A stretch of 64,000 nt of DNA, from assembly GCA_031555505.1 (NCBI GenBank), contig JAVBUH010000007.1, positions 25,378-89,377 on the forward strand. Reading direction: 5' to 3'. The translations under genes were made by a program, and so were the position numbers. Below, piece after piece: positions 14,386-29,453 of the stretch. Origin of the DNA: Tannerellaceae bacterium. Its GTDB lineage: Bacteria > Bacteroidota > Bacteroidia > Bacteroidales > Tannerellaceae. Below the pieces are notes generated by a model, which was not told the origin of the DNA, searched no databases, and worked only from the letters and a program-made list of their open reading frames with translations. Each line of letters opens with the position of its first letter. Within the stretch, counting starts at the first letter, position 1.

Positions 14386-15699
14386 TTATTCGTAATGCAA
14401 CGCCTCGGCCGGCGGGATGCGGGAGGCATTACGTGCAGGGATCCAAATGGCAGCAATAATAACAACGGCCATGATGAACCAGGTGGTCGCATTCGTGATC
14501 AGGAAACGCAGCACCTTACGATCAGGCAGGTAAACTGTATGCATGGCAGTCATGCTATCGTCTTTCCCCATTGTTTCGATCAAATCGGCAACCACAAGCT
14601 GCGATTCGATAATCATCGCCGGCATAGCGGCAAAAGTCAACAGGATCAATCCTTCCATAAAAAAGGCCCCACGGATACCCTTATGCGTGGCTCCCAACGC
14701 CATCAGCAGCCCGATCTCGTTCCGGCGCGTATTGATACGATACCAAAACGTACCCATTACGCACAACAGCATATTAATTAGAAAGAAGGCCATCAGGTAG
14801 GTGCGGATACGGATCTCCGTAGTCCCGCCAAACAACCGGGCAGTATCTTGTTTGATGTCGGCATACGATTGCACACTCAACAGGTAAAAATTCCCGATCC
14901 GCAGTGCATCAGCCATATCGGCTGTAAACCCATCCCGGAAAACCGCATCCGAAATTGAGGCATTGCTGCGGACTGCATAGACCAGGCCTTTCACGCCATT
15001 GGCATCCAACTGGTCGGCGCGTACAGAATGGGATGAATAAAAAGCATGCTGCGGACGATTGTAATCAAACCGCTTGATATCATCCACCACCCCGACGATC
15101 GTATAATGCTTTTCCTGTCGCCACCAGTCAACCACTTCTTTGCCTATCGCACTGTGTCCGGGGAAAAGCTGCGCCTCCGCCGAGCGACTCACCACCATCG
15201 CATTCGGGATCGTCCAGTCAAAATCGTTCATCGATACCGGTTTGCCGTTGCTGGTATATCCGAATACCCGGAAGAAGTCGCCATCCGGACAAGGGGAAAA
15301 CAGTTGGCCGTTCGCTTGCCGCAGTGTATCCGACAGCGGGAAGAAAGTACCCCCGGTAAAATTACCGCTCCACAAACGTGAATTACCGGCGGCTACCGAA
15401 ACCGCTTCCACACCCGGATAGTTGCGTAAGGTCTGGAGGATACGGACATAGTTGGCATAGGCGGCTTCAGCCGAATCTTCTTCCGCCGCATAATCCGGAT
15501 GATCCGAAGGATACACCGCCAGGTTTACCTGCCAGGTATGCGCCGCACTCCGATGGTCGGGGATACTTTTATTATACCCATACACAAAAAAGTAATCCAC
15601 CATGTACCAGATCAGGCAGAACACACACAACAGTTCCACCATTATCCACACATGACTGCGCTTGCGGTTCCACAGTTGCTTGCATATCGTTTTTATCAT
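14386..15699 (-). CDS. FtsX/MacB-type ABC permease, class A, pair 1
   Basis: ORF 14386..15795 trimmed to ATG 15699 (MIKTICKQLWNRKRSHVW); the longer form overlaps the upstream gene. Layout is TM1, a ~200-aa periplasmic domain, then three C-terminal TM helices. C-terminus is PPAEALHYE. Confidence 0.85.
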   Translation of the reverse strand: MIKTICKQLWNRKRSHVWIMVELLCVFCLIWYMVDYFFVYGYNKSIPDHRSAAHTWQVNLAVYPSDHPDYAAEEDSAEAAYANYVRILQTLRNYPGVEAVSVAAGNSRLWSGNFTGGTFFPLSDTLRQANGQLFSPCPDGDFFRVFGYTSNGKPVSMNDFDWTIPNAMVVSRSAEAQLFPGHSAIGKEVVDWWRQEKHYTIVGVVDDIKRFDYNRPQHAFYSSHSVRADQLDANGVKGLVYAVRSNASISDAVFRDGFTADMADALRIGNFYLLSVQSYADIKQDTARLFGGTTEIRIRTYLMAFFLINMLLCVMGTFWYRINTRRNEIGLLMALGATHKGIRGAFFMEGLILLTFAAMPAMIIESQLVVADLIETMGKDDSMTAMHTVYLPDRKVLRFLITNATTWFIMAVVIIAAIWIPARNASRIPPAEALHYE

Positions 15700-15707
15700 A
15701 GCCGGTA

Positions 15708-17003
15708 TCAATGAAGGTTTAACGAATAAATGATTTCCCTGCGGGATGCCCGCCACGCCGGAATGAACACAGACAACAGATTCAGCACAAAGCAAAAGCC
15801 CAGCGCAATCAGGAACACCGGCATATTGAGCAACATGGTGGGCGAGAAATCTACCACCGGCCCCTCGGCTGGTGTGAGGATCATCTGTTTACCGATCGTC
15901 ATAATCCAGTCGTTGCTTAACAGGATCAGTACATACGAGAACAACAGGCCCACAGCTCCCCCCAACAGGGTAAACAGGAAATTCTCGGCCATCAGTTGTA
16001 CCAACAGCCGTTCTTTCGGAGCACCGAAGGAACGACGTATACCCATCTCGCTCAGGCGGCGCTCCATGCGTGAATCGGCCATGCCCGAGAGGCTGACAGC
16101 GGGCACAAGCAACAGCGCCAGGAAAAGCAGGCCATAGGTGAGGAATATCTTCGAAAAGTCGGGCGCCACATTCGACCAAAAGCGGAACACATGCTCCCAA
16201 TGCTTGTCGGGTTGCCCGTTCAGTGTCAGTTCTATGGGTGCATATTGTCCGGCATACCGGCGTACATTCGCCTCTATTTCCTGCTTCAACGCATCCATTT
16301 TCGCTGCAGAAGCGGCCAGCATATATACCTGCATACGACCCAGCGCGGCTGTCTGTCCAAACCGGCTGTCATAATCAGGGCGTACCGTATAAGGCACCCA
16401 TAACTGGGCATACGACACTTCAGTTGCCTGCGACACATCGCTCACTACGCCACACACCCGATACGATTCAAAGTCAAGGCTCACATACTGGCCCACCGCC
16501 TCTTCCGCTCCGAATAAGCGCTGTGCCAGTGTAGAGGAGATAACGGCCGTGCGGATACCCGATTGCAGATCGGCCTCCGTAAACGGTTTCCCTTCGTGGA
16601 AACGGAAAGAGAAGACTTTCCAAAAGTCCGTATCCGTGAACTTCACTGTCACCGGCCACTGGTCCTTACTCCCTTCCGGCTGGATATAATTCACATTGAA
16701 CGACTGGCAGATACGGCTCACCGCTTCCACCTCTTTCAGGGAAGAGAAACAGCTTTGCACAAAGGAATGAGAGAGCGAGCCGCTGCTGGAACCTTTTTCG
16801 GCATACTTTTCCTGGGCGCTTTTCACGATCAGCATCCGGTCGCGGTTCGTCTCCGGATAGATATTGGCCACCTTGATGTAATACACGATAGACAGTACCA
16901 TCACCGCGGCGATGGACAAGCCTGTCCCGACGATATAGATCGAGCTGAACAGCTTTTCCTGCCGGATCAGGTTCCAGGCTTGTTTGAAGTAGTTTATTAG
17001 CAT
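15708..17003 (-). CDS. FtsX/MacB-type ABC permease, class B, pair 1
   Basis: 431 aa with N-terminus MLINYFKQAWNLIRQEKLF. Coupling loop RRLSEMGIRRSFGA. C-terminus IPAWRASRREIIYSLNLH. Confidence 0.85.
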   Translation of the reverse strand: MLINYFKQAWNLIRQEKLFSSIYIVGTGLSIAAVMVLSIVYYIKVANIYPETNRDRMLIVKSAQEKYAEKGSSSGSLSHSFVQSCFSSLKEVEAVSRICQSFNVNYIQPEGSKDQWPVTVKFTDTDFWKVFSFRFHEGKPFTEADLQSGIRTAVISSTLAQRLFGAEEAVGQYVSLDFESYRVCGVVSDVSQATEVSYAQLWVPYTVRPDYDSRFGQTAALGRMQVYMLAASAAKMDALKQEIEANVRRYAGQYAPIELTLNGQPDKHWEHVFRFWSNVAPDFSKIFLTYGLLFLALLLVPAVSLSGMADSRMERRLSEMGIRRSFGAPKERLLVQLMAENFLFTLLGGAVGLLFSYVLILLSNDWIMTIGKQMILTPAEGPVVDFSPTMLLNMPVFLIALGFCFVLNLLSVFIPAWRASRREIIYSLNLH

Positions 17004-17017
17004 CGTTAGTTAATTGA

Positions 17018-18274
17018 TTATTCATAATGCAGCGCCTCTGCCGGTTGGACCGTAGCCGCCTGCCGGGCAGGATACCAGATACCAATGATGATCATCAGCG
17101 CCATCAGCCCGAAGGTGATCAGGGTACCGGCCAGGAAGCGGAGGACCGTAAAATCAACACGTCCCACCTCAACCACCTCTGCCAGTCCGAGGTTCAGGCA
17201 AATAATAGCGGAAGGGATCGTAGCCAGTCCCAACAGGATCATCCCCTCCTCGATCAGGATGGCGATCAGGCTGCGGGGCGTGCCGCCGAGGGCTACACGC
17301 AAGCCCATCTCTCCTTTCCGGGCTTCGGTGCGTACCCAGAAGGTGCCGATGATACCCAGGAAGATATTCAGCAGCAGGAAGAAGAGGACGGCCAGTTGGG
17401 TATGCAGTGCGTTGCTGTCGTCGCCCACAAAATAGTCGTGGAAAGATTCGACGGTCCGGATGTCCAACAGATAGACATTCCCTACCGAAAGTTGCGCATC
17501 CATGTCAGCCCGGAAACGTTTGGCAAAGTCTTTATCGGCATCGGGTGCAACACGAATACACAAGTCGATCGCATATACATCCTCCGGTTTGGCTCCGGCC
17601 ATGATAGCCGGGGTCAGTATGTCATAGAACGCATAATCGGCTTTGTGGTATTCGGTATACCGCAATTTTTGGGTGACGGCGGCGACCGATCTATACCGTT
17701 CGGTATTCTCTTTGTCCTGCGGATAATGCAGGAGTTGGCCAATTCCCGAAGAGTTGCCGAAAAGGGTAGCTTCCATATCTTCGGTGATCACGAAAGTCTT
17801 CTCATTCAGGCCATCGATAGGGATATCGCGTCCATCTTTGCCCTTGATGTTGAATACCCGGAAATAATCGGGTGTCACCGTCAGCAGGCGGCCCGGAATA
17901 TAGTTGGCGGTGTCGGCGCCCACTTGTCGTCCGCGCCTGTTCTGGCAATACGGATAAGCGGCGCGGGAATACGATACTGCTTCCACGCCGGGATAGGTAC
18001 GGATTCGGTCGGCGATGGTTAACAGGTCTTCACCTGTTGTGGTAGCCTTCCTGTCCAACGGGATATACCCTTCGCTTTCGTTCCCTTTTTCAGACAAGGC
18101 AATATAATAGGTATGCTCCGTATCGTACCCTTTGGGCGACGTAAGCGTATAGCCGGTCACCAACAGATAATCTACAATATACCAGAGAAACACCGACACG
18201 AGTAATAACTCTACCCAAATCCACGCGTTCGTCTTTCGCTGGTTCCAGATGATAGAAAATAAATGTCTGATCAT
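17018..18274 (-). CDS. FtsX/MacB-type ABC permease, class A, pair 2
   Basis: 418 aa with N-terminus MIRHLFSIIWNQRKTNAWIWVELLLV. Coupling loop RKGEMGLRVALGG. C-terminus QPAEALHYE. Confidence 0.88.
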   Translation of the reverse strand: MIRHLFSIIWNQRKTNAWIWVELLLVSVFLWYIVDYLLVTGYTLTSPKGYDTEHTYYIALSEKGNESEGYIPLDRKATTTGEDLLTIADRIRTYPGVEAVSYSRAAYPYCQNRRGRQVGADTANYIPGRLLTVTPDYFRVFNIKGKDGRDIPIDGLNEKTFVITEDMEATLFGNSSGIGQLLHYPQDKENTERYRSVAAVTQKLRYTEYHKADYAFYDILTPAIMAGAKPEDVYAIDLCIRVAPDADKDFAKRFRADMDAQLSVGNVYLLDIRTVESFHDYFVGDDSNALHTQLAVLFFLLLNIFLGIIGTFWVRTEARKGEMGLRVALGGTPRSLIAILIEEGMILLGLATIPSAIICLNLGLAEVVEVGRVDFTVLRFLAGTLITFGLMALMIIIGIWYPARQAATVQPAEALHYE

Positions 18275-18301
18275 AATTCGTATAGATTAGAGTAGTGAGT
18301 A

Positions 18302-19576
18302 TTAATTATCTTTCAATGCATCCACAATATTGCCCGAGGCTGTGCGGTAGGCCGGGATACCTGCCGAAAGCAGGTTCAGTACCAGGCAGAACACAAAAGC
18401 GTAGACAAAGACCATCGGGTTGAACAGCATCTCTATATTGACCGAAGCCAGGCCGTTGATCTCGCGTCCGCCGGCATAACCCAACAGCCAGCCCTTCAAC
18501 ATAAACAAAGCTCCGTATGATAAGAGCAGCCCGATCACACCGCCGATCAGCGATACCACCAGGTTCTCCGTCAACACCTGCATCATCACCTCACCCCGGG
18601 TAGCGCCGAAAGCTTTGCATACACCGATCTCAGTCATTCGTTTGCGCATCCGCGAAAGCGTCATACCCGACAGGTTGATGGCCGGAACGAGCAAGAGTAT
18701 CAGGATGATGACGGCATAGCGCACCATCGTACCCCTGGTACTCGGCTTGGCAGCACTGGTACGTGTTTGCAATTCGAAATGGGTCTCCGGTTGTCCGTTG
18801 AGCACATATTCATAGTCGGTAAGCGTGGTGTTGTATTGTTTGACACGCTGTTCGGCTTCGGCCCGGATCGCCGGAAAATCGGCAGGCGACCTGGCTAGTA
18901 AATACACCTGGAACAGCCCCAGTATATCTTCCGTAAATGAGATCTGCATAAATTTATCGGCGCTATACGGTATCCATATCTGGGCGTAGGCCGATTCGGC
19001 CAGGATAGTGACGTCTTTCACCACGCCGCAGACAGTGAATAGTTCATGGCTCAGCAGCATCTCTTTACCTACGATGTCGGTCGTACCGAATAGTTTACGC
19101 GCTACCGTTTCACAGACGACAACCGTTTTGATCCCCGATGTCACGTCGGCTTCCGTATACGGCTTCCCGGCAATGAATGCGAAATTGAACACTTTCCAGA
19201 AATTTTCGTCGGTATTCAGCAAATCCCCATTGAACTTGTTTTTTCCGCCCGGAACGGATGCCAGTTTGGAACGGAAACGGGCGGCAAAAGCCACCGTCTC
19301 TACCGATTGCAGGCCGCGATAACAAGCCTTGATGGTTTTGAGCGACAGGTTGGAATTACTGTCGCCGCCTTTCTTTCCCAATGCTGTAGCCCATGTCACA
19401 TACAGCATCCGGCTGCGGTTACCCTCAGGCTGATAATCGGCGTTCCGCACCTCATACACAATCACGATCACCATGATCATACAGATCGCCAATGCCGTAC
19501 CGACAATCGACACCACGCCCAGCAGCGGGTTCTCCCGCAATGCCGCCATCGCTTGTTTAAAATAGACCTTATACAT
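18302..19576 (-). CDS. FtsX/MacB-type ABC permease, class B, pair 2
   Basis: 424 aa with N-terminus MYKVYFKQAMAALRENPLLGVVSIVGTALAICMIM. Coupling loop RKRMTEIGVCKAFGA. C-terminus IPAYRTASGNIVDALKDN. Confidence 0.88.
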   Translation of the reverse strand: MYKVYFKQAMAALRENPLLGVVSIVGTALAICMIMVIVIVYEVRNADYQPEGNRSRMLYVTWATALGKKGGDSNSNLSLKTIKACYRGLQSVETVAFAARFRSKLASVPGGKNKFNGDLLNTDENFWKVFNFAFIAGKPYTEADVTSGIKTVVVCETVARKLFGTTDIVGKEMLLSHELFTVCGVVKDVTILAESAYAQIWIPYSADKFMQISFTEDILGLFQVYLLARSPADFPAIRAEAEQRVKQYNTTLTDYEYVLNGQPETHFELQTRTSAAKPSTRGTMVRYAVIILILLLVPAINLSGMTLSRMRKRMTEIGVCKAFGATRGEVMMQVLTENLVVSLIGGVIGLLLSYGALFMLKGWLLGYAGGREINGLASVNIEMLFNPMVFVYAFVFCLVLNLLSAGIPAYRTASGNIVDALKDN

Positions 19577-19606
19577 ATTTATTTACCTTTTTCTACTAAC
19601 TACAGT

Positions 19607-20851
19607 TTATTCATAATGCAACGCCTCAGCCGGTTGTATCTTCGTAGCCAAACGGGCAGGATACCAGATACCGATCATGATCATGATAGCCAGCAATAAA
19701 ACAGTAATGGATATACCAACCAGGAAGCGTAAAATACCAAAAGGCATCAGATAGGTTCCTACAATATCCATCAGACCGACATTGATACAAATGATTCCGG
19801 CCGGGATCATGGCCAGTGCCAACAATACCAACCCTTCGCCAATGAGTATAGACATCAATCCGCGGCGTGTTTCCCCTAAAGCAATGCGTAATCCCATTTC
19901 CCCTTTCCGGTATTGTGTACGGAACCAGAACGTACCGATAATACCCAGGAAGATATTCAGCAACAAAAAGCCTAAGACGGAAAGTTGTGAACGGACTTCG
20001 TTCATGTCTCGTTTCAGGTAACTGGTGCGCAACAGGTCAAAGCTTACGATATCCATCAAATACAGGTTGCCTACACGCATTTGTGTTTTCATATCCTGAC
20101 GGAACCGCTTGGCAAAGTCTTTATCCGCTTCGGGTGAGACGCGGATGCATAGCTCGATATACTGAACCATATTGCGATCCAGCTTGGCTACCTCGGCAGC
20201 ATCCATCAACAGAAAGTAGGTATTCTCCCGCTTATCAAATTCCAGGTAACGGAAAGAATGGGTAACAGCCGCTACCTTTCTGGCTACATCCACAGAGCTG
20301 GAATGTACAAATGGCTTACCCAATCCCGGTTGGTCGCCATACATCTCCTTCTCCATCTCCGCCGATATAACTACATTGGTAGCACCGGCTTCTACCTGGA
20401 CATCTTTCCCTTCTTTGGTTTTCACGCGGAATACCTGAAAGAATCCGGGAGTAGCATGCCGTTGATGGCCAGCCACATACCGGGTCGTATCTTCTCCGAC
20501 TAATTGGTAAGAGTTTCCCTGGCTATAGGGAACGGAAAAGAAAGAAAGACAGGCTGCTTCAATACCCGGATAGTTGCGGACACGGTCCAACACTACCTGT
20601 AAGTCCTCGCCGGAAGTGGTTGTCTTCGTTTCCGCCGGTATATATTCGGCGCTTTTAGACGTCAGCTCACGCATCATCAACTGATACGTATGATCGATCT
20701 CCGTACCGGTAGGCTGGTAATAGGTATAGGCCGTAACACAAAAGAAATCAACGATGAACCACAAGAAAACAGACACCAGCAGGAGTTCGGCCCACAGCCA
20801 GGTATTACTCTTCCGCTGATTCCATATCATTGTAAGCAAATGCTTTATCAT
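19607..20851 (-). CDS. FtsX/MacB-type ABC permease, class A, pair 3
   Basis: 414 aa with N-terminus MIKHLLTMIWNQRKSNTWLWAELLLV. Coupling loop RKGEMGLRIALGE. C-terminus QPAEALHYE. Confidence 0.88.
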   Translation of the reverse strand: MIKHLLTMIWNQRKSNTWLWAELLLVSVFLWFIVDFFCVTAYTYYQPTGTEIDHTYQLMMRELTSKSAEYIPAETKTTTSGEDLQVVLDRVRNYPGIEAACLSFFSVPYSQGNSYQLVGEDTTRYVAGHQRHATPGFFQVFRVKTKEGKDVQVEAGATNVVISAEMEKEMYGDQPGLGKPFVHSSSVDVARKVAAVTHSFRYLEFDKRENTYFLLMDAAEVAKLDRNMVQYIELCIRVSPEADKDFAKRFRQDMKTQMRVGNLYLMDIVSFDLLRTSYLKRDMNEVRSQLSVLGFLLLNIFLGIIGTFWFRTQYRKGEMGLRIALGETRRGLMSILIGEGLVLLALAMIPAGIICINVGLMDIVGTYLMPFGILRFLVGISITVLLLAIMIMIGIWYPARLATKIQPAEALHYE

Positions 20852-20874
20852 AGATTTTCAGAATTAAGCTGTTA

Positions 20875-22911: not shown

Positions 22912-22958
22912 GACTGTAATTTTTAGATGTTATTATTAATTGTTATTATCTTTATTAT

Positions 22959-23051
22959 AAAGGCCTCAAGGGCTTTAAGGGCTACAAAGGCCTTAAGGAC
23001 GGGCTACGCATTAGCGCTCAGGACTTAGACATTAAAGCCTTTGAGGCCCTT
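22959..23051. repeat. Intra-operon stem-loop plus five tandem 9-mers in the 144-nt gap between permease A4 and the ATPase gene
   Basis: AAAGGCCTCAAGGGCTTTA (22959-22977) pairs with TAAAGCCTTTGAGGCCCTT (23033-23051), giving a 19-bp stem with 2 mismatches. Tandem 9-mers aaaggcctc/aagggcttt/aagggctac/aaaggcctt/aaggacggg occupy 22959-23003. An AT-rich tract at 22912-22958 precedes the ATPase start. Confidence 0.7.
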
Positions 23052-23055
23052 ATCC

Positions 23056-24315
23056 TTACTCATACCTTAAGGCTTCCGCCGGAGGCAGGTTTACCGCTTT
23101 GCGTGCCGGGAACCAGACTCCCAGGCAGATCATGCCTCCCATCAGTGTGTATGTGAATACCGTCACACACAAGAATCGCCAGAGCGACAAAGACAGGCGG
23201 GTCGTTTCCATCAGATCTACAAAAGCCAGGTTCGCTATCAGAAAGAGAATGATCGGGATAGTAATACCTAACAGGCAAAGCCCTTCCCAGTTCACATAGC
23301 CATATAATCCTCTTTTGCTTGAGCCTAAGGCTACCCGAAGCCCGATCTCACCACGGCGGTATTGCGTACGCAACCAGAAGGTGCCGATAATGCCGAAAAA
23401 TACGTTGACAAGCATAAAGGCCATCATGGCTATTTTGATCTTCATCCGTTGTTCATAGCCCCGGACTTTCTCTTCGCGTTGCTGTGTGAGTATCTTGGCG
23501 CCGTATACATAGAGGTTGTTCACCGTTAGGCGATCGCCCATCGATTCCAGGAAACGGTTCATATCGGCGCTGGTATGTATCTGCTTCATCCGGACGCACA
23601 ACTCCACATTGGAAGCTCCATGCTGGGCGATGAACGCTTCCAGGTCGCTCCCTACCAACACATCATAAAAACAAGGGTTACTGATCTCATAGTTGCTCAT
23701 CCGTATCGGTTCGGAAACGGCCGAAACGGTGATCTCTTTCTCATCTCGCTTCACCTTCCGTCCTTTACCGCTTTGCGTACCGAAAAACTCGGTTTCCATA
23801 TCGGCAGATATAACCATGGAAGACCTGTCCGTATTTATTTGGGAAGCTATCAGACTCCCGTTTTTATCTTTTGATCGGAATACGGAAAAATACTCCGGTG
23901 TCACCTTGCGCATCTGAAAAGAGCGGGAAGAAAGCCCTGTTGTGTCGCCATCGATAGCGTCAATGGTTGTGTACATAGCCCCAAAGGCATACGGCACGGC
24001 AGAGAGGCTAAGGGAAACCGCCTCCACTTCGGGGCTCTGTCGAATCAGGTCGGCCAGCCGGAGCAAATCTTCCGCTTCAGTTGTTGTCTGTTGTTCTTCC
24101 GGAATATAACCCACAGAACCCTCATTCAGCATTTGCTTTTTCAGCCGGAACGTATTTTCGATATCGAAGCCAAGCGGTTGGTTGTATACTACCACATCAA
24201 CAAGGAACACGTCCACAAGCAGCCAGAGTACGCCAATCACCACCAGGAGTTCGCCAAACAGCCAACCATTGGAGCGGCGTTGTTTCCATATTATTTTGAA
24301 TATCTGCTTAAACAT
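23056..24315 (-). CDS. FtsX/MacB-type ABC permease, class A, pair 4
   Basis: 419 aa with N-terminus MFKQIFKIIWKQRRSNGWLFGELLVV. Coupling loop RRGEIGLRVALGS. C-terminus PPAEALRYE. Confidence 0.88.
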   Translation of the reverse strand: MFKQIFKIIWKQRRSNGWLFGELLVVIGVLWLLVDVFLVDVVVYNQPLGFDIENTFRLKKQMLNEGSVGYIPEEQQTTTEAEDLLRLADLIRQSPEVEAVSLSLSAVPYAFGAMYTTIDAIDGDTTGLSSRSFQMRKVTPEYFSVFRSKDKNGSLIASQINTDRSSMVISADMETEFFGTQSGKGRKVKRDEKEITVSAVSEPIRMSNYEISNPCFYDVLVGSDLEAFIAQHGASNVELCVRMKQIHTSADMNRFLESMGDRLTVNNLYVYGAKILTQQREEKVRGYEQRMKIKIAMMAFMLVNVFFGIIGTFWLRTQYRRGEIGLRVALGSSKRGLYGYVNWEGLCLLGITIPIILFLIANLAFVDLMETTRLSLSLWRFLCVTVFTYTLMGGMICLGVWFPARKAVNLPPAEALRYE

Positions 24316-24339
24316 ACGTCTATCGTTTTGAAGGAGTTT

Positions 24340-25593
24340 CTAATCGTTATCTTTTAAGGCATCCACAATAGGCTGACGGGCTGTGCGGATAGCTGGGATT
24401 GTTGAGCTGAGTAGGTTGAGCAGAAGCACAAACAGCAATGCAATAGCGAAAGTTGCGGGCTGGAACAGCATACCGGCAGTTACAAAAGCGCCGTTCAGCA
24501 GGAGGAAGCCCTTACACAGATCGAGCAGTATAAAAGACAACACAAGTCCGATCACCCCCCCGATACAGGAAGTCACACAACTTTCGCACACAATCTGCAT
24601 CCACAGCCGGTTATACGTAGCTCCAAAGGCTTTGCGTACACCTACTTCGCTACGACGGCGCTGTACGGTTGATTGTGTAACACCCGTCAGGTTCAGTGCA
24701 GGCAGTAATAACAGGAACAGCAGGATAGCCCCTTTTTCGAGGATAAATTCTTTCATTGTCACCTTCCTGAATCCGCCGCCACCCATGGCGATCACCGCAC
24801 GGGTTGTCGGCGCATTGGGGAAATCAACCGTCTGCGTTGCATTAGTATCATTCAACGCTTGTTTGCGTTTTTCCACCTCTGCCCGGATAACCGGGAAATC
24901 TTTTTTGTCTTTTGCCAAGATGAGGACCTGGAAAGAACCGACAAAGCCATAGCGGGAAGTCAGCAACTCCGGATCCGTAGTATAAGGAATCCATATCTCA
25001 CTAAATGAATCGCTCGCCTGCCGGCTTACTTCCTTTACCACACCGCGGATCGTAAATTCGCGCGAATCCATAAGGACTGTCTTACCGACAACCTCTGTTG
25101 TTCCAAACAAATCCTTTGCCACTTTTTCGCTGATCACCATGGCTGCGATACCCGACTGGTGATCGGCTTCGGTAAACGGTGCGCCCTGTATAAACTGAAA
25201 GTTAAATACTTTCCAGAAGCCCGGATCAGTAGCCTTCCGGGCATACTCCTGAAACAGACGCTTCCCCGGAAGAGAAAGGGGGCGGTTGTCTGAAGCAACG
25301 GCAGTCACCGCCTCGGCAGTCTCCAGAGGATAGAAGACCTCCTTTACCACCTCGAGCGACATCACACCATGGTTGGCAAAGGTATGGTCTTTAGACTCCA
25401 CGGCGGTACCATATACATAGAGTGTCCGGTCGCGGTTATTCTCGGGAGAGAAATTGGCCAGATCAATCTGGTAGATCAGCACCACGAGCATAATCATTGC
25501 GATCGAAAGTGCCGTACCCAGGATGGAGATCGTGCTGACGAGCGGACTCTCTTTCAGTATTTGGATGGCCATTTTTATGTACTGCTTCAACAT
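24340..25593 (-). CDS. FtsX/MacB-type ABC permease, class B, pair 4
   Basis: 417 aa with N-terminus MLKQYIKMAIQILKESPLVSTISILGTALSIAMIM. Coupling loop RRRSEVGVRKAFGA. C-terminus IPAIRTARQPIVDALKDND. Confidence 0.88.
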   Translation of the reverse strand: MLKQYIKMAIQILKESPLVSTISILGTALSIAMIMLVVLIYQIDLANFSPENNRDRTLYVYGTAVESKDHTFANHGVMSLEVVKEVFYPLETAEAVTAVASDNRPLSLPGKRLFQEYARKATDPGFWKVFNFQFIQGAPFTEADHQSGIAAMVISEKVAKDLFGTTEVVGKTVLMDSREFTIRGVVKEVSRQASDSFSEIWIPYTTDPELLTSRYGFVGSFQVLILAKDKKDFPVIRAEVEKRKQALNDTNATQTVDFPNAPTTRAVIAMGGGGFRKVTMKEFILEKGAILLFLLLLPALNLTGVTQSTVQRRRSEVGVRKAFGATYNRLWMQIVCESCVTSCIGGVIGLVLSFILLDLCKGFLLLNGAFVTAGMLFQPATFAIALLFVLLLNLLSSTIPAIRTARQPIVDALKDND

Positions 25594-25646
25594 TGGACTA
25601 AATTTTAGTATAAGTTTATTATAAATAGACTTTACGGATCATATCA

Positions 25647-26906
25647 CTATTCATACCGCAACGCTTCTGCAGGGGGAAGACTGGCGGCTTTACGGGCGGG
25701 GAACCAGATAGCCAGGCAGATCATACCGGCCATCAGCAGGTAGGAACCGGCTGTTGCACGCAGGAACCGCCAGGCAGACAACTCCTGCCGGGAAGTTTCC
25801 AGTATATCCATCAGTGCCAGATTCAGGATCAGGAAAAAGATAGCGGGCAGGGTGAGCAGTAACAGGCAAAGGCCTTCGTTGTTCATAAACCGGTATAATC
25901 CACTCCGGCTCGATCCGAGCGCGATACGCAGCCCGATCTCGTTCCGGCGGTATTGCGTACGCAACCAGAAGGTACCAATGATGCCGAAGAATACATTCAC
26001 CAGCATGAAGGCCATCAGGGACAGACGGATCTTTGTAGCGTCGCCATTCCCGCGAATCATATCTTCGCGTTGGCGGTCGAATTTCCTCGCCCCATAGACG
26101 TAGAGGTTGTTCACCGTCAGCCGGTCGCTGATCGATTCGAGGAACCGGTTCATCTCTTCGGGACTGTAGTCTTTCTTCATCCGCACACACAACTCGGCAC
26201 GGGAAGCGCCGAAGTTCTCGACGAGATCCGTGAAATCATTCCCTACTTGTACATAATAAAAACTGGGCTCACTGATTTGGTAATCCGTTAAACGTATCGG
26301 TTGGGATACGGCGGAAACGACTACTTCTTCTTCATCCCATTTCACGCTTCTCCGTTCACCGCTTTGTTTGCCGAAGAAACGGGTTTCCATATCGGCCGTA
26401 ATCACGATGGAAGAACGGGTGGTTTCCAGTTGCGGTACGATCGGATCGCCGTTTTTATCTTTAACACGGAAAACGGTGAAATATTCCGGGGAGACATTGC
26501 GTATCTGGAAGGATTGGCTGGACAATCCGGTAGTATCGCCATCCACCGGCTCGATATTGGTCCAGGAGTTGCCGTACGAATACGGGCAGGAGAAATAGGT
26601 CACGCAAATCTCTTCCACTTCATTGCTCAACCGGATCTGGTCCATCAGCCTCAACAGGTCGTCGGCCTCGGTGGTCGTGCGCTGGTCGGCAGGGATAAAA
26701 CCGGGCGCCTGCTGGTTCAGGTCGGCCAGTTTGAGGCGGAAGGTGTGGGAAATATCGAAGCCTAACGGCAGGTTGTACGTGCGTTTTTCAACCAAATAAA
26801 CATCCATCATCACCCAAAGCACGCCCATCACCACCAATAATTCAGCAAATATCCAACCATTCGAGCGACGTTGGTTCCATATCATTTTGAGTATCTGTTT
26901 CCACAT
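25647..26906 (-). CDS. FtsX/MacB-type ABC permease, class A, pair 5
   Basis: 419 aa with N-terminus MWKQILKMIWNQRRSNGWIFAELLVV. Coupling loop RRNEIGLRIALGS. C-terminus PPAEALRYE. Confidence 0.88.
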   Translation of the reverse strand: MWKQILKMIWNQRRSNGWIFAELLVVMGVLWVMMDVYLVEKRTYNLPLGFDISHTFRLKLADLNQQAPGFIPADQRTTTEADDLLRLMDQIRLSNEVEEICVTYFSCPYSYGNSWTNIEPVDGDTTGLSSQSFQIRNVSPEYFTVFRVKDKNGDPIVPQLETTRSSIVITADMETRFFGKQSGERRSVKWDEEEVVVSAVSQPIRLTDYQISEPSFYYVQVGNDFTDLVENFGASRAELCVRMKKDYSPEEMNRFLESISDRLTVNNLYVYGARKFDRQREDMIRGNGDATKIRLSLMAFMLVNVFFGIIGTFWLRTQYRRNEIGLRIALGSSRSGLYRFMNNEGLCLLLLTLPAIFFLILNLALMDILETSRQELSAWRFLRATAGSYLLMAGMICLAIWFPARKAASLPPAEALRYE

Positions 26907-26933
26907 ATCTGTAGTTCTTTTTGCAGGTGAATA

Positions 26934-28187
26934 CTATTCTACATCTTTCAGTGAGTCTACAATAGGCTGCCGGGTGATCCGTATAGCCGGGATCGATGCG
27001 CTCAGCAGGTTAAGCAGCAGGACAAAGCTGAAAGCGATCAGGAATGTGCCGGGTTTGAGCAGCATTTCAACATTCAGCATCGTGTTGTTGCCCAACAGGA
27101 AACCCTTACATAGCTGGAGCAGTGCAAAGGAGAGGGTGAAACCGATAACTCCGCCGATCAGGGAGATTACCAGGTTTTCACTGATGATCTGCCGGAATAA
27201 AACGGCACGCGTAGCACCAAACGACTTGCGGAGCCCCAGTTCGCCACGGCGTCGCTGGACGGACGATTGCGTGACGCCGGTCAGGTTCAAGGCCGGTACC
27301 AGCAACAGGAACAATAGCAGGGAGCCCCGCTCTGCCCAGAAATCCAACGTGGTTCTTTTCCTGAATCCGTTCCCTCCCATGGCTACATCTGCCTGGGTAA
27401 GCAATCCGGTTGGAAAACTAACATCCACTTCCGTATCGGCGGCGTTCAACTGCAACCGGCGCTTTTCCAGTTCATCGCTGATCGCCTGGAAATCGCTTCT
27501 GTCTTTTGCCAGGATACAAATACTAAATGTGCCTGCTTTAGTCTGCCGGGAACTCATGAACATTTCGTTGGTGGTATAGGGAAGCCAGATTTCTCCCCAG
27601 GATTTGTTGGCTTGCCTGCTTACCTCCTGTACGACGCCACAGATCGTATATTCAAGGAAATCCATGATGATGGCCTTTCCCACCACATCGGTCGTACCGA
27701 ATAATTCGCGGGCCAGCTTGTCGTTCACCACCACAGAACGGATGCCCGAATCGAAATCGGCCTCCGTAAATGGCTTGCCCTGCAGGAATTCGAAATCAAA
27801 CACTTTCCAGAATGCCGCATCGGTATATAACAGGGCATATTCCTTATACAATCTCTTTCCGGGAAGGGATACCGGACGGTTGTCCGTTGCCGTAGCGGTC
27901 ACGGCGGCCGGTGTCTGGAGAGCATAGAAATATTCTTTCACTACCTGGTGCCCCATTCCACCGCGGTTACGGTTGGACTTATCCTTTTTTTCCACCTCGG
28001 TCCCGGATATATACATCATCGAACCACGGTTGGTTTCCGGACGGAAGCCTACCAACTGCACCTGGTAAACCAATACCACGATCATGATCATAGCGATCGA
28101 AAGCGCCGTCCCCAGGATGGATATCGTGCTGACGAGCGGATTCTCCCGAATCGTCTGGATGGCCATTTGTATATAATGCTTCAACAT
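26934..28187 (-). CDS. FtsX/MacB-type ABC permease, class B, pair 5
   Basis: 417 aa with N-terminus MLKHYIQMAIQTIRENPLVSTISILGTALSIAMIM. Coupling loop RRRGELGLRKSFGA. C-terminus IPAIRITRQPIVDSLKDVE. Confidence 0.88.
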   Translation of the reverse strand: MLKHYIQMAIQTIRENPLVSTISILGTALSIAMIMIVVLVYQVQLVGFRPETNRGSMMYISGTEVEKKDKSNRNRGGMGHQVVKEYFYALQTPAAVTATATDNRPVSLPGKRLYKEYALLYTDAAFWKVFDFEFLQGKPFTEADFDSGIRSVVVNDKLARELFGTTDVVGKAIIMDFLEYTICGVVQEVSRQANKSWGEIWLPYTTNEMFMSSRQTKAGTFSICILAKDRSDFQAISDELEKRRLQLNAADTEVDVSFPTGLLTQADVAMGGNGFRKRTTLDFWAERGSLLLFLLLVPALNLTGVTQSSVQRRRGELGLRKSFGATRAVLFRQIISENLVISLIGGVIGFTLSFALLQLCKGFLLGNNTMLNVEMLLKPGTFLIAFSFVLLLNLLSASIPAIRITRQPIVDSLKDVE

Positions 28188-28205
28188 CGGTCTGAATATT
28201 AGTAG

Positions 28206-29453
28206 TTATTCGCTTACTTTCAGTTTGTTCTTATCCTTATAGCTGGTCATATCAGACACGACCACCTGGTCGCCAGCCTGAAGGCCACCTGTTACTTCCA
28301 CATATTCGAAGTTGCTGTCGCCCAGTTGTACTTTACGTTTCAGCAGTTGGTCGCCGTTTACTACAAAGAGTTCGTATTCACCTTTGCCCATATAATAAGA
28401 TGAGTTGGCTATACGCATCACGTCGTCTTTGACTGCGTTCATCACATATACATCCGTCTTGAGGCCGGATCGGAGGCGGCGGTGGTTGTCTTCGTTTAAC
28501 TGGACAGAGAAGGAGATGACACCGTTTTTCGAAAGTGGCGTCACATCGCTCACCACACCGTCGAGCTTGTCGTTGCCGATCTTCACCACTGCACGGCTGC
28601 CGGCGGCGATGCGGTCGCCATACGTATCGGCAATCTCTCCTTCGATCTTGAAATGCGACAGGTCAGACACGATCGCCACGCGGTTACCCTGTGCTACCTG
28701 CGCGCCGATCTCATTGTTCACATACGTGAGGATTGCTTTGCGGGGCGAACGGATCTGGGCATCTTCCAGCGTACGTTTCATCTCGGCCAGTCCTTTGCGG
28801 AAGATACTGAGTTCGAGTTCTTTCACTTTCATCTCAGCATCTACGAGCGCTTTCTCGTTGGAATACTTCTGTTCGTCTTCGTCGAGCTTGAGTTTGCTCA
28901 CGTTGTAATCGAGTTCCACCTGACGTACCTTATCGGTAGTACCGGCGCCAAGGCTGTCGAGGTAACGTTCGTTGCGAAGTTCTACTTCTTTACGGTTGAG
29001 CGTCATGCGTGAAACCTTGAGCTGCATTTCCATTTCGGACAGCTTACCTTGGTTGGAGACACCCAGTTGTTGCAACTGAAGACGTTTCATTTGTTCTTCG
29101 TCAAGCAGCTTGTTGTAGTCGGTCTCTGCTGTCTGGAGGTCGAGTTTCAGGATCGGCGTCCCTGCATCCACCGAGTCGCCGCCCTTTTTATAGATTTCCA
29201 CAATACGCGAATTGATGGGCGACGTGATGATTTCTTCAAAGGCGGGTACCACCTTGCCCGAAGCGCTGACCGATACTTCGATCACGCCCACATCCACGGT
29301 AGAGATCTGGAGATCCCGCCGGTTCAGACTGGTTTGCAACAATGAAATAATAAGCACGATCAGAACCACGGCAATCCCGACACCTGATCCGACCTTAATG
29401 ATTTGTTTGCGCGATTCTTTCTGACGCACTTCTTTTGAAATTTCTCTGTCCAT
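28206..29453 (-). CDS. HlyD-family periplasmic adaptor (membrane fusion protein), first gene of the operon
   Basis: ORF 28206..29528 trimmed to ATG 29453 (MDREISKEV). Single N-terminal TM helix, a long coiled-coil region (QLQQLGVSNQGKLSEMEMQLKV...), and a C-terminal beta-barrel domain. Confidence 0.85.
   Translation of the reverse strand: MDREISKEVRQKESRKQIIKVGSGVGIAVVLIVLIISLLQTSLNRRDLQISTVDVGVIEVSVSASGKVVPAFEEIITSPINSRIVEIYKKGGDSVDAGTPILKLDLQTAETDYNKLLDEEQMKRLQLQQLGVSNQGKLSEMEMQLKVSRMTLNRKEVELRNERYLDSLGAGTTDKVRQVELDYNVSKLKLDEDEQKYSNEKALVDAEMKVKELELSIFRKGLAEMKRTLEDAQIRSPRKAILTYVNNEIGAQVAQGNRVAIVSDLSHFKIEGEIADTYGDRIAAGSRAVVKIGNDKLDGVVSDVTPLSKNGVISFSVQLNEDNHRRLRSGLKTDVYVMNAVKDDVMRIANSSYYMGKGEYELFVVNGDQLLKRKVQLGDSNFEYVEVTGGLQAGDQVVVSDMTSYKDKNKLKVSE

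What the first reader, a model, noticed from the sequence alone, without database searches (positions are those of the whole stretch)
14386..29453. Ten FtsX/MacB-type permease genes share one ATPase and one HlyD adaptor in a single 15-kb operon
Seen: twelve same-strand genes with gaps of 8-144 nt run from 29453 down to 14386. The order is HlyD-type adaptor, permeases B5-A5-B4-A4, one LolD/MacB-type ATPase (GPSGCGKST, LSGGQ, ILADEPT), then B3-A3-B2-A2-B1-A1. All ten permeases are about 415-437 aa with the MacB/LolCE layout: an N-terminal TM helix, a ~200-aa periplasmic domain, and three C-terminal TM helices preceded by an R..E(I/M/V)G(L/V/I)(R/C)(K/V/I)(A/S)(F/L)G loop. They fall into two strictly alternating classes. 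Class A has N-terminus M.K....IW.QR..N.W...ELL and C-terminus PAEAL(H/R)YE. Class B has N-terminus M(Y/L)K.Y(F/I)K(Q/M)A and a C-terminus ending IV(D/E)(A/S)LKD in four of five copies. Established: type VII ABC systems (MacB, LolCDE) use two permease chains with two ATPase chains. LolC/LolE is the precedent for a heterodimer served by one ATPase gene, and fused two-FtsX duplicated permeases exist in Bacteroidota and Acidobacteriota. Inference: five alternative B/A heterodimers may compete for one ATPase and one periplasmic adaptor. That would be a cassette-like, substrate-diversified extractor or efflux machine. No outer-membrane factor, sensor or regulator gene lies beside it. Such arrays are routinely auto-annotated as 'ABC transporter permease', but I know of no functional description of a 10:1:1 architecture.
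Basis: partly seen in the sequence, partly recalled or inferred. Interest (0 to 1): 0.85.

Follow-up and report, generated by a model that had tools for sequence, protein, structure and literature searches.

The report
Multi-permease MacB-type efflux operon, Bacteroidales
A gut-type Bacteroidales bacterium carries a 15-kb operon in which five two-gene permease modules appear to share one ATPase and one periplasmic adaptor of a MacAB-TolC-like pump; this layout is common in related genomes, but I found no experimental study of it.

Summary
Twelve minus-strand genes (14386-29453) encode one HlyD/MacA-type adaptor, one LolD/MacB-clade ATPase and ten MacB_PCD+FtsX permeases. The permeases alternate strictly between two classes, B then A.

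It is one case of a conserved Bacteroidales locus: [sigma-54 promoter] adaptor-(BA)n-ATPase-(BA)m, usually followed by TolC, a sigma-54-dependent response regulator and a histidine kinase. Complete arrays hold 1-5 pairs, and truncated ones show at least 7. A and B counts are equal in 46 of 47 complete arrays.

Four results point to a B/A heterodimer as the working unit:
- Class B aligns to the N-terminal half and class A to the C-terminal half of fused ADOP permeases.
- A natural 858-aa B-A fusion exists.
- B-to-A gaps are tiny (median 11 nt).
- The A and B trees mirror each other.

The ATPase (about 87% identity) and adaptor (about 74%) are far more conserved than the permeases (about 44-50%). 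The periplasmic domains vary most.

The window lacks TolC and the regulators but keeps the conserved sigma-54 promoter and upstream palindrome.

Best reading: an inducible type VII ABC pump with interchangeable heterodimeric permease modules. Substrates are unknown. I found no functional paper. I rate it a new variant of a known kind, of moderate interest.

The parts
29547..29570 (-). Palindromic upstream element GAACAaagTGTTCGatagtGAACA, a probable binding site (UAS) for a sigma-54 enhancer-binding protein
   Evidence: It is the only match in the window, against 0 expected in shuffles. A related motif, YCGR-N2-4-YGRACA, lies upstream of the adaptor gene in 59 of 66 related loci, against a 6.7% background. 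It sits about 58 nt upstream of the -24 element. Its function is inferred.
29487..29501 (-). Sigma-54-type -24/-12 promoter-like element TGGCACagggtTTGT, 34-48 nt upstream of the adaptor start codon
   Evidence: In 64 of 66 related upstream regions TGGCAY is followed by a conserved TT-n-G at the -12 spacing. Parabacteroides loci carry the perfect TGGCACGGAGTTTGC. No Bacteroides sigma-A -7 motif (TAnnTTTG) occurs on this strand in 29454-29985. The -12 element here reads GT instead of GC.
28206..29453 (-). Periplasmic adaptor (MacA/HlyD-type membrane fusion protein), 415 aa, with a hydrophobic N-terminal segment that looks like a membrane anchor
   Evidence: Pfam HlyD_3 and HlyD_D23. NCBIfam RND_mfp, DarC and MacA, all below their cut-offs. 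Identity is 95% to L001 and averages 74% over 66 loci.
26934..28187 (-). Permease B5 (class B, 417 aa)
   Evidence: MacB_PCD 1.6e-25 and FtsX 4.1e-17. The AF2 model has pLDDT 86 and its top fold matches are MacB and 5xu1. It belongs to orthogroup 'b'.
25647..26906 (-). Permease A5 (class A, 419 aa)
   Evidence: Pfam hits are weak. The AF2 model has pLDDT 89.5 and its top fold matches are MacB (5gko, 5lil, 5nik) and LolE. It aligns to the C-terminal half of ADOP, as its close paralogue A4 does.
24340..25593 (-). Permease B4 (class B, 417 aa), 60% identical to B5
   Evidence: It aligns to ADOP positions 3-402.
23056..24315 (-). Permease A4 (class A, 419 aa), 63% identical to A5
   Evidence: It aligns to ADOP positions 475-803.
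22957..23053 (.). 28-nt imperfect inverted repeat in the 144-nt gap between A4 and the ATPase gene, followed by an AT-rich leader
   Evidence: The RNA fold is -38.7 kcal/mol with z = -2.9. In 24 of 61 related arrays this gap holds an internal sigma-54-like promoter, but the window's gap does not. The role is unknown.
22246..22911 (-). The single ABC ATPase (221 aa) of the LolD/MacB/FtsE clade
   Evidence: ABC_tran 2.5e-34. DarD, LolD and MacB-NBD score about 250 bits, all below equivalog cut-offs. The best PDB sequence match is 5xu1_A at 3.6e-70. Identity to 80 Bacteroidales loci is 83-97%.
20875..22167 (-). Permease B3 (class B, 430 aa)
   Evidence: It is 60% identical to B2 and belongs to orthogroup 'f'.
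19607..20851 (-). Permease A3 (class A, 414 aa)
   Evidence: It is 49% identical to A2.
18302..19576 (-). Permease B2 (class B, 424 aa)
   Evidence: ADOP positions 7-401. It is 82% identical to its L001 orthologue.
17018..18274 (-). Permease A2 (class A, 418 aa)
   Evidence: ADOP positions 480-803. It is 81% identical to its L001 orthologue.
15708..17003 (-). Permease B1 (class B, 431 aa), the most divergent B copy
   Evidence: MacB_PCD 6.3e-29. It belongs to orthogroup 'd'. It is the window B copy closest to the N-half of the natural fusion P0348, at 42% identity.
14386..15699 (-). Permease A1 (class A, 437 aa), the most divergent A copy and the last gene of the operon
   Evidence: ADOP positions 471-803. 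It is the window A copy closest to the C-half of fusion P0348, at 38% identity.
13816..14382 (+). Convergent PAP2-family phosphatase gene, a conserved neighbour. Whether it belongs to the system is uncertain.
   Evidence: Pfam PAP2, with weak LpxE and undecaprenyl-diphosphate phosphatase similarity. It is directly downstream of the ATPase-permease array, on the opposite strand, in the window and in 17 related loci. In 5 of these (L003, L004, L022, L023, L025) TolC and the sigma-54 regulator follow, and the kinase too in three.

Best explanation
The operon encodes the inner-membrane and periplasmic parts of a MacAB-TolC-like (type VII ABC) tripartite extrusion system, in a form typical of Bacteroidales.

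**Proposed working unit.** The unit is a heterodimer of one class-B and one class-A 4-TM permease. This is the split equivalent of a fused ADOP-type duplicated permease. It would be powered by a homodimer of the single ATPase and capped by the single MacA-like adaptor, which would bridge to a TolC-family channel encoded elsewhere in this genome.

**The five modules.** The five B-A modules belong to three ancient orthogroups. Two of these were duplicated in tandem, giving b b | ATPase | f f d. They would be alternative permease cores that dock on the same ATPase and adaptor. Their cytoplasmic and transmembrane interfaces are conserved, and their periplasmic domains have diverged. Each module would therefore handle a different set of periplasmic or outer-leaflet substrates, most plausibly membrane-active peptides, lipopeptides or other amphiphiles.

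**Expression.** Transcription is predicted to start from one sigma-54 promoter. A two-component enhancer-binding regulator, not encoded in the window, would activate it.

**Shown versus inferred.**
- Shown: gene content, folds, two classes, pairwise co-inheritance, the correspondence to fused permeases, the conservation asymmetry and the conserved promoter motifs.
- Inferred: heterodimer assembly, sharing of the ATPase and adaptor, use of TolC, sigma-54 dependence and substrate diversification.
For: **Family**
- All ten permeases hit Pfam MacB_PCD and FtsX.
- Both classes model with a MacB-like fold.
- The ATPase and class B are closest in sequence to the S. pneumoniae MacAB-like pump 5xu1.
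- The adaptor is HlyD/MacA-like.

**Heterodimer**
- Class B aligns to ADOP (TIGR03434) positions about 3-402 and class A to about 471-803.
- The natural 858-aa fusion P0348 is B (residues 1-423) followed by A (440-858).
- Order is strictly B then A in the window and 80 loci, apart from split or fragmented genes. Counts are equal in 46 of 47 complete arrays.
- The median B-to-A gap is 11 nt, against 31 nt for A-to-B.
- A and B distance matrices over 213 pairs correlate at r = 0.92 (Spearman 0.65). Shuffling partners within loci gives 0.13 +/- 0.02.
- Within the window, paralogue identities are congruent: A4-A5 63% with B4-B5 60%, and A2-A3 49% with B2-B3 60%.

**Sharing**
- One ATPase gene occurs in 45 of 47 complete arrays, and every complete array has an adaptor gene, whatever the number of pairs from 1 to 5.
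- Mean identity to the window over 66 loci is 86.6% for the ATPase and 74.4% for the adaptor. It is 43.5% for the best A and 50.2% for the best B.
- dN of the permeases against L001 is 4-10 times that of the ATPase and adaptor. All are under purifying selection, with dN/dS of 0.03-0.16.

**Diversification**
- The periplasmic domain is the least conserved region (A 0.35, B 0.46). The N-terminus plus TM1 scores 0.54 and 0.59, and TM2-4 plus the C-terminus 0.50 and 0.57.
- Orthogroups keep their positions across genera.

**Tripartite and regulated**
- TolC, a sigma-54 response regulator and a histidine kinase follow the array in many related loci.
- The sigma-54 -24/-12 motif and the upstream palindrome are conserved, including in the window.
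- PMC12316311 independently predicts sigma-54 control of COG0577 permeases in Bacteroidia.
Against: - No protein-protein or transport data exist. The heterodimer and sharing models rest on genomic context only.
- The window has no TolC, regulator or kinase gene, so a tripartite assembly in this organism is assumed.
- The -12 element reads TTGT, not TTGC.
- Class A Pfam scores are partly below the gathering thresholds.
- Only one natural B-A fusion appeared among the top 150 class-A representatives. It could be a gene-calling or sequencing artefact.
- dS against L001 is near saturation, so the dN/dS values are approximate.
- Periplasmic divergence may reflect relaxed constraint rather than new specificities.
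- Two complete arrays carry a second ATPase gene (L047 and L078), and the truncated L030 shows the same. Sharing is therefore not obligatory.
Confidence: 0.6

Rival explanations
1. Ten homodimeric permeases. Each A and each B forms its own homodimer, as MacB does, giving ten different pumps that share the ATPase. The B-A alternation is then only a relic of how the genes were duplicated.
For: MacB, HrtB, FtsX and the 5xu1 permease are homodimers (established knowledge), and these are the closest folds. Each class has all four TM helices and a complete periplasmic domain.
Against: Equal A and B counts in 46 of 47 arrays are not expected for independent homodimers. Nor are mirrored A and B trees that collapse when partners are shuffled, 11-nt B-to-A gaps, the match of B and A to the two halves of ADOP, or a B-A fusion.
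Confidence: 0.1
2. Redundant or decaying duplicates. Only one or two pairs work, and the rest are recent duplicates drifting toward loss without distinct roles.
For: Pair number is very fluid between species, from 1 to at least 7. Some related arrays contain fragmented A or B genes, such as L033 and L054. Two of the window's pairs are tandem duplicates.
Against: All ten window ORFs are intact and carry the conserved motifs. dN/dS against L001 is 0.06-0.16. The duplicates are old, at 50-63% identity. Three distinct orthogroups are kept in the same positions across genera.
Confidence: 0.12
3. A Lol-like or other extractor rather than an efflux pump. The B/A heterodimers extract lipoproteins or lipids from the inner membrane, as LolCDE does. 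Different modules would serve the unusually large lipoprotein repertoire of Bacteroidales.
For: LolC/LolE is the paradigm of a heterodimeric type VII permease with one ATPase gene. LolE and LolC chains are among the top fold matches. The ATPase scores about as well on LolD as on DarD.
Against: A MacA/HlyD adaptor is the first gene, and TolC follows in related loci. Lol systems have neither. The lolCE equivalog scores are 18-23 bits against a cut-off of 362. An inducible sigma-54 and two-component control fits a stress pump better than a housekeeping sorter.
Confidence: 0.1
4. Free combinatorial pairing. Any B can pair with any A, giving up to 25 heterodimers, so gene adjacency does not define cognate pairs.
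For: TM and coupling regions are conserved within each class across paralogues. All genes appear to be co-transcribed.
Against: Partner-specific co-evolution is strong. Duplication always copies B and A together. Tight B-to-A spacing suggests coupled synthesis.
Confidence: 0.08

Closest known systems
MacAB-TolC (E. coli, A. baumannii, A. actinomycetemcomitans), the type VII ABC tripartite efflux pump
   Same: The permeases have four TM helices with a MacB_PCD periplasmic domain. The NBD belongs to the MacB/LolD clade. The adaptor is MacA/HlyD-like. A TolC gene sits in homologous loci. MacB chains are the top fold matches for both classes.
   Different: MacB is a homodimer with the NBD fused to the permease. 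Here the ATPase is a separate protein, the permease is inferred to be a B/A heterodimer, and five modules accompany one ATPase and one adaptor. No TolC lies in the window.
Spr0693-0694-0695 of Streptococcus pneumoniae (PDB 5xu1), a MacAB-like pump
   Same: It is the best sequence match in the PDB for both the ATPase (3.6e-70) and class B (2.8e-14). The ATPase and permease are separate polypeptides and the system has an adaptor.
   Different: It has a single homodimeric permease gene, comes from a Gram-positive organism without TolC, and has no array.
LolCDE
   Same: It is a heterodimer of two diverged FtsX-type permeases served by one ATPase gene. LolE and LolC are high fold matches.
   Different: It has no adaptor or TolC and only a single pair, and it is essential and constitutive. 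The lolCE equivalog model is far from met.
ADOP-family duplicated permeases (TIGR03434) and other fused double-FtsX permeases such as E. coli YbbP (PDB 9ge6)
   Same: Class B corresponds to the N-terminal module and class A to the C-terminal module. YbbP is a fold match. From my own knowledge, the ADOP family is described as many permease paralogues without adjacent ATPase genes. That also implies ATPase sharing.
   Different: Here the two modules are separate genes arranged in a regular array, with the ATPase and adaptor in the same operon. Scores are 80-136 bits against a full-length cut-off of 622.
Shared-energiser ABC systems: group II ECF transporters with exchangeable S components, and multitask ATPases such as MsiK/MsmK (own knowledge)
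   Same: The concept is the same: several membrane specificity modules use one ATPase module.
   Different: Those are importers of unrelated folds. I know of no demonstrated sharing among type VII exporters, and the papers I searched showed none.
P. gingivalis MacB-like loci PG0679-0685, PG1662-1667 and PG0280-0283
   Same: They are Bacteroidales loci with TolC, an adaptor, two or three 'ABC transporter permease' genes and one ATPase (PMC12094164). A periplasmic domain from a P. gingivalis permease (PDB 3is6) is a fold match.
   Different: They hold only one pair, or three permeases. The review offers only a hypothetical role in heme efflux. I did not test orthology to the window genes.

Membership tests
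Type VII ABC transporter (MacB/FtsX superfamily) permease | C-terminal FtsX domain (TM2-TM4) with a cytoplasmic coupling helix | tested here: met
   PF02687 is found in all ten. Class B scores 51-68 bits. Class A scores 20.6-31 bits, and A4 and A5 fall below the 25.5-bit gathering score. The AF2 models show TM2, a coupling helix, TM3, TM4 and a short C-terminal helix.
Type VII ABC transporter (MacB/FtsX superfamily) permease | Large periplasmic core domain (MacB_PCD: Porter and Sabre subdomains) between TM1 and TM2 | tested here: met
   PF12704 is strong in class B (80-102 bits) and weak in class A (20-35 bits). Fold search of both models matches isolated MacB, YknZ and P. gingivalis periplasmic domains (3ftj, 5f9q, 3is6).
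Type VII ABC transporter (MacB/FtsX superfamily) permease | Cognate NBD of the MacB/LolD/FtsE clade with intact Walker A, signature and Walker B motifs | tested here: met
   Sequence motifs are present. ABC_tran scores 119 bits. DarD, LolD, MacB-NBD and FtsE score 215-253 bits. PDB matches are 5xu1_A, MJ0796 and LolD.
MacAB-TolC tripartite efflux pump | Periplasmic adaptor (membrane fusion protein) encoded with the transporter | tested here: met
   HlyD_3, HlyD_D23 and RND_mfp hit, with MacA at 6.3e-08. The adaptor is the first gene of the operon.
MacAB-TolC tripartite efflux pump | TolC-family outer-membrane factor | tested here: inconclusive
   None was found in the 64-kb window: none of the ORFs scanned with Pfam is one, and BLAST of all window ORFs of at least 120 aa found none. 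An OEP-family gene follows the array in 29 of the 80 related loci. The rest of the source genome could not be reached.
MacAB-TolC tripartite efflux pump | Homodimeric permease with a fused N-terminal NBD (MacB architecture) | tested here: not met
   The ATPase is a separate 221-aa protein. There are two permease classes with heterodimer signatures.
MacAB-TolC tripartite efflux pump | Export or extrusion of defined substrates (macrolides, peptides, toxins) | not testable with these tools
   There are no experimental data, and I found no functional paper.
LolCDE lipoprotein extractor | Match to the LolC/LolE equivalog model | tested here: not met
   TIGR02212 scores 18-23 bits against a cut-off of 362.
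LolCDE lipoprotein extractor | No membrane fusion protein or TolC; hands substrate to LolA | tested here: not met
   An adaptor gene is in the operon, and TolC is in related loci.
ADOP duplicated permease (TIGR03434) | A single polypeptide of about 800 aa with two MacB_PCD+FtsX modules | tested here: not met
   The window genes are separate 414-437-aa ORFs with stop codons and 8-27-nt gaps between B and A. Only the metagenomic relative P0348 is fused.
ADOP duplicated permease (TIGR03434) | Sequence similarity to the family model | tested here: inconclusive
   It is the best NCBIfam hit for all six permeases tested. Class B matches the N-half at 130-136 bits and class A the C-half at 81-94 bits. 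All are far below the 622-bit cut-off set for full-length proteins.
Sigma-54-dependent, two-component-controlled operon | A -24 GG / -12 GC promoter at the right spacing upstream of the first gene | tested here: met
   TGGCACagggtTTGT lies at 29487-29501. The -12 reads GT. The motif is conserved in 64 of 66 related upstream regions, with a position-specific TT-n-G.
Sigma-54-dependent, two-component-controlled operon | A cognate enhancer-binding protein with a Sigma54_activat domain | tested here: inconclusive
   It is absent from the window. A gene with Response_reg, Sigma54_activat and HTH_8 domains follows TolC in 22 related loci, and a histidine kinase follows in most of those.

The most novel reading that the evidence does not exclude
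The array is a plug-and-play type VII ABC machine. Five (elsewhere 1 to at least 7) co-evolving B/A heterodimers exchange on one common ATPase dimer, adaptor hexamer and TolC scaffold. This would be analogous to S-component sharing in group II ECF importers. One sigma-54 and two-component envelope-stress signal would then switch on a whole panel of substrate-specific extruders. Gain and loss of modules would track the peptide, lipid or toxin challenges of each gut lineage.
Probability: 0.4. Interest if true: 0.7.

Novelty: new variant of a known kind. Interest (0 to 1): 0.55.

Why it matters
Type VII ABC transporters (MacB, LolCDE, FtsEX, BceAB, HrtBA) are studied as single-permease machines. 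This locus and its hundreds of relatives in Bacteroides, Parabacteroides and Tannerella suggest a modular version, in which a slowly evolving ATPase-adaptor core serves several fast-evolving heterodimeric permease modules.

If that is confirmed, three things follow:
- It would explain the long runs of 'ABC transporter permease' genes in gut Bacteroidales genomes.
- It would give a natural system for asking which parts of the MacB fold set substrate specificity.
- It would point to an inducible, sigma-54-controlled envelope-defence system in abundant human gut bacteria. Such a system could bear on tolerance to host antimicrobial peptides, bile, bacteriocins or drugs.

The comparative data here already define cognate pairs, orthogroups and candidate regulatory sites that can be tested directly.

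Tried and rejected
**Searches and scans that led nowhere**
- The sigma-70 promoter and terminator scan was uninformative (26 promoter-like sites found against 21 expected). It does not apply to Bacteroidota.
- The Bacteroides -7 motif TAnnTTTG is absent upstream of the operon and is not enriched in intergenic gaps. I therefore dropped the idea of internal sigma-A promoters.
- I looked for TolC, a regulator or a kinase in the window. None was found.
- I tried to extend beyond the window with the look-up of encoding contigs on three window proteins. None is on record.
- I tried to map the B. thetaiotaomicron orthologous locus to BT numbers and fitness literature. Cluster names gave no locus tags. 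A search for BT0857-0864 found only an iron transcriptome table.
- Nine literature searches found no functional or structural study of the multi-pair array.
- Rfam and tRNA scans found nothing in the operon.

**Ideas considered and dropped**
- The three GAGGCCTGCGTC repeats upstream are not an operon-specific operator. The same repeat clusters occur in two other intergenic regions of the window.
- I found no support for phase variation by invertible promoters. The only inverted repeats are a 10-nt hairpin upstream and the 28-nt repeat in the gap before the ATPase gene.
- The "A A" and "B B" runs in my first classification of related loci are split or fragmented genes, not true departures from alternation.

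Full report
**1. Observation**

The region holds twelve consecutive minus-strand genes. After correcting three start codons to the first in-frame ATG that gives the conserved N-terminus, the order is:
- Adaptor 28206-29453.
- B5 26934-28187, A5 25647-26906.
- B4 24340-25593, A4 23056-24315.
- ATPase 22246-22911.
- B3 20875-22167, A3 19607-20851.
- B2 18302-19576, A2 17018-18274.
- B1 15708-17003, A1 14386-15699.

Gaps are 8-144 nt. All ten permeases (414-437 aa) hit Pfam MacB_PCD and FtsX. Class B hits are strong. Class A hits are weak and partly below the gathering scores. The ATPase has intact Walker A, signature and Walker B motifs and is an ABC_tran protein of the LolD/MacB/DarD clade. The first gene is a HlyD/MacA-type adaptor.

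AlphaFold2 models of A5 (pLDDT 89.5) and B5 (86.0) have the expected layout: an N-terminal helix, TM1, a mixed alpha/beta periplasmic domain, then TM2, a coupling helix, TM3, TM4 and a short C-terminal helix. Their best PDB matches are MacB, LolE/LolC, Spr0694-5, HrtB, YtrF and YbbP.

The two classes are homologous but very diverged (hhalign 97.8% probability, 21% identity).

**2. Setting**

The window comes from a Tannerellaceae (Parabacteroides-like) genome. The ATPase is 97% identical to one in a Tannerellaceae MAG (L001). It is 83-93% identical to those of Parabacteroides, Bacteroides, Tannerella and Phocaeicola.

I classified every ORF in the best 80 loci with HMMs built from the window's A, B, ATPase and adaptor proteins. 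Nearly all show the same grammar: adaptor, n B-A pairs, ATPase, m B-A pairs. Apparent exceptions ("A A", "B B") are split or fragmented genes.

Among the 47 arrays with both ends visible (46 related loci and the window):
- Pair numbers are 1 (8 arrays), 2 (12), 3 (9), 4 (14) and 5 (4).
- Arrays cut by the 10-kb flank reach at least 7 pairs.
- A and B counts are equal in 46 of 47.
- 45 of 47 have exactly one ATPase gene.

The window's 10:1:1 layout is therefore at the upper end of a continuum, not a singular architecture.

**3. The pair is the unit**

Five independent lines point to a B/A heterodimer.

- *Fusion correspondence.* The best NCBIfam hit for every permease tested is the fused "ADOP family duplicated permease" TIGR03434. 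Class B always aligns to positions about 3-402 and class A to about 471-803. This is the same order as the genes.
- *A natural fusion.* I searched the class-A profile against 1.84 billion representative proteins. It found 837 clusters at E <= 1e-30. Among the top 150 was one 858-aa protein, P0348. Its N-half is class B, closest to B1 at 42%. Its C-half is class A, closest to A1 at 38%.
- *Gene spacing.* B-to-A gaps are very short: median 11 nt, with 94% at or below 40 nt. A-to-B gaps have a median of 31 nt, A-to-ATPase 130 nt and ATPase-to-B 56 nt.
- *Duplication copies both genes.* In the window, A4-A5 is 63% with B4-B5 60%, and A2-A3 is 49% with B2-B3 60%. A1 and B1 are both outliers.
- *Mirrored trees.* Over 213 adjacent full-length pairs, the A and B distance matrices correlate at r = 0.92 (Spearman 0.65). 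Shuffling partners within loci gives 0.13 +/- 0.02. The nearest A and nearest B in other loci belong to the same pair in 148 of 213 cases.

Clustering the pairs gives orthogroups that keep their positions across genera. The window reads b b | ATPase | f f d, and its close relative L001 reads b | ATPase | f d. The window's five modules are thus three old lineages plus two tandem duplications of whole B-A units.

**4. Shared core, fast-evolving modules**

Against 66 loci, the window's ATPase averages 86.6% identity and the adaptor 74.4%. The best-matching A and B average only 43.5% and 50.2%.

Against L001, dN is 0.018 for the ATPase and 0.031 for the adaptor, but 0.11-0.20 for the permeases. 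All have dN/dS of 0.03-0.16. The ten permeases are therefore maintained genes, not decaying copies. dS is near saturation, so these ratios are approximate.

Within the permeases, the least conserved part is the periplasmic domain (mean column conservation 0.35 for A and 0.46 for B). The N-terminal helix plus TM1 scores 0.54 and 0.59. TM2-4 plus the C-terminus scores 0.50 and 0.57. The TM2 and coupling-helix stretch and the C-terminal region are the most conserved windows, at 0.67-0.71.

In solved MacB-type structures these regions face the NBD (my own knowledge of those structures; not tested here).

This pattern is what one expects if many different modules must dock on one ATPase and one adaptor while their periplasmic parts diverge. 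It does not prove it.

**5. Regulation and missing parts**

In related loci the array is followed by three genes:
- a TolC-family gene (Pfam OEP);
- an NtrC-type sigma-54-dependent response regulator (Response_reg, Sigma54_activat, HTH_8);
- a HAMP/PAS histidine kinase.

In Parabacteroides a convergent PAP2 gene sits between the array and this trio. The window has the PAP2 gene (13816-14382). After it comes an ABC-F ATPase gene, not the trio. No TolC or regulator was found anywhere in the 64 kb. L001 also shows no trio in the 4.7 kb after PAP2.

The window nevertheless keeps the conserved control region. TGGCACagggtTTGT lies at 29487-29501, with the -12 element reading GT. The palindrome GAACAaagTGTTCGatagtGAACA lies at 29547-29570, where 0 matches are expected by chance.

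Across 66 related upstream regions, 64 have TGGCAY followed by a conserved TT-n-G at the -12 spacing. A palindrome-like motif lies about 58 nt upstream in 59 of them, against a 6.7% background. The usual Bacteroides sigma-A -7 motif is absent.

A 2025 computational survey independently reported sigma-54 promoters upstream of COG0577 FtsX-like permeases in Bacteroidia (PMC12316311).

In 24 of 61 related arrays a second sigma-54-like promoter sits just before the ATPase gene. None occurs in 236 B-to-A gaps. The window's 144-nt gap has no such promoter. It holds a 28-nt inverted repeat instead (-38.7 kcal/mol, z = -2.9).

I infer a single sigma-54-driven 12-gene transcript in this organism, activated by a regulator encoded elsewhere.

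**6. Mechanism proposed**

The proposed complex is (B.A)1 : ATPase2 : adaptor (a hexamer by analogy with MacA) : TolC3. Five alternative B.A cores would be made together and use the same ATPase and adaptor pool.

Substrates are unknown. The closest characterised relatives handle membrane-active peptides, macrolides, heme or lipoproteins.

Bacteroides versions of the array embed a DUF2807/GIN ("Toastrack") gene. PMC/bioRxiv 10.1101/2020.09.24.301986 links that domain family to envelope-stress systems. This fits an envelope-defence role only loosely, and the window has no such gene.

**7. Comparison and novelty**

The system works like MacAB-TolC, but it is not a canonical member. The NBD is not fused, the permease is inferred to be heterodimeric, and TolC is not adjacent. 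It shares the heterodimer principle with LolCDE but fails the LolCE model, and it has an adaptor. It is the split counterpart of ADOP-type fused permeases.

Sharing of one ATPase by several membrane modules is known for importers such as ECF group II and MsiK (my own knowledge). I found no description of it for type VII exporters. I also found no functional paper on these Bacteroidales arrays in nine full-text searches. A P. gingivalis review only lists similar small loci with hypothetical roles.

**8. Verdict**

The heterodimer and sharing parts are strongly supported by comparative genomics. The claims of singularity and of missing regulators are corrected.
- The locus is widespread and routinely auto-annotated, so a specialist in Bacteroides genomes would not be astonished.
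- The modular logic, the cognate-pair map and the conserved sigma-54 control are not described in the literature I could search, and they are directly testable.
- Novelty: new variant of a known kind. Interest: about 0.55.

Noticed in passing
window 29690-29746, 35522-35622, 59439-59539: A dispersed intergenic repeat, GAGGCCTGCG(T/C)C, occurs in clusters of 3-5 copies spaced about 22-23 nt apart. There are 16 matches against 4.2 expected. One cluster lies upstream of the operon, one near tRNA-Gln and one next to the glutamine synthetase gene. It looks like a REP-like element rather than an operon-specific site.
   Followed up: partly
window 36485-36499 (+): A second sigma-54-type motif, TGGCACGGTTCTTGT, lies about 120 nt upstream of the FtsH gene (36618-38957). 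It is the only other match to the pattern in the 64 kb.
   Followed up: no
window 22957-23053: A 28-nt imperfect inverted repeat rich in AAGGCCTT/GAGGCC sits in the gap between A4 and the ATPase gene (RNA fold -38.7 kcal/mol, z = -2.9). It sits in the gap where 24 of 61 related arrays carry an internal sigma-54-like promoter.
   Followed up: partly
L074 10697-11323, L035 13297-13929 and about 25 other Bacteroides loci: Bacteroides versions of the array embed a same-strand gene of about 206 aa for a DUF2807/GIN ('Toastrack') domain protein, after the ATPase or after the first downstream pair. They also carry an extra hybrid kinase (ABC_sub_bind + PAS + HisKA) before TolC. Neither is in the window.
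   Followed up: partly
L016 10853-11635 (-), L017 10895-11701 (-) and other Parabacteroides loci: An opposite-strand gene with HU-like DNA-binding and DUF4469 domains is inserted directly after the ATPase gene in many Parabacteroides arrays. This splits the array into two transcription units. It is absent from the window.
   Followed up: no
L003, L004, L016, L030, L034-L037, L057 and others: the gap between class A and the ATPase gene: An internal sigma-54-like promoter (for example TTTTGGCACGCAATTTGCC) lies just upstream of the ATPase gene in 24 of 61 arrays. None occurs in 236 B-to-A gaps. This suggests separate boosting of ATPase expression in those species.
   Followed up: partly
P0348 (metagenomic protein, 858 aa): A natural fusion of a class-B module (residues 1-423) and a class-A module (440-858), closest to the window's B1 and A1. 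Its genomic context could not be inspected.
   Followed up: partly
L033, L054, L080, L017 (related loci): Several arrays contain fragmented A or B genes. These are either pseudogenes or MAG assembly errors. If real, they indicate ongoing loss of modules.
   Followed up: no
window 9219-11054 (-) and 11067-12758 (-): Downstream of the PAP2 gene lie a membrane sulfatase-superfamily protein with DUF3413 (YejM/OpgB-like) and an ABC-F ATPase. In Parabacteroides loci TolC, the sigma-54 regulator and the kinase lie downstream of PAP2 instead. This implies a rearrangement in this lineage.
   Followed up: partly
window 17027-18022 (+): A 331-aa antisense ORF lies entirely inside A2. Its composition is biased toward R, G, D and Q. 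It is probably a spurious shadow ORF.
   Followed up: no
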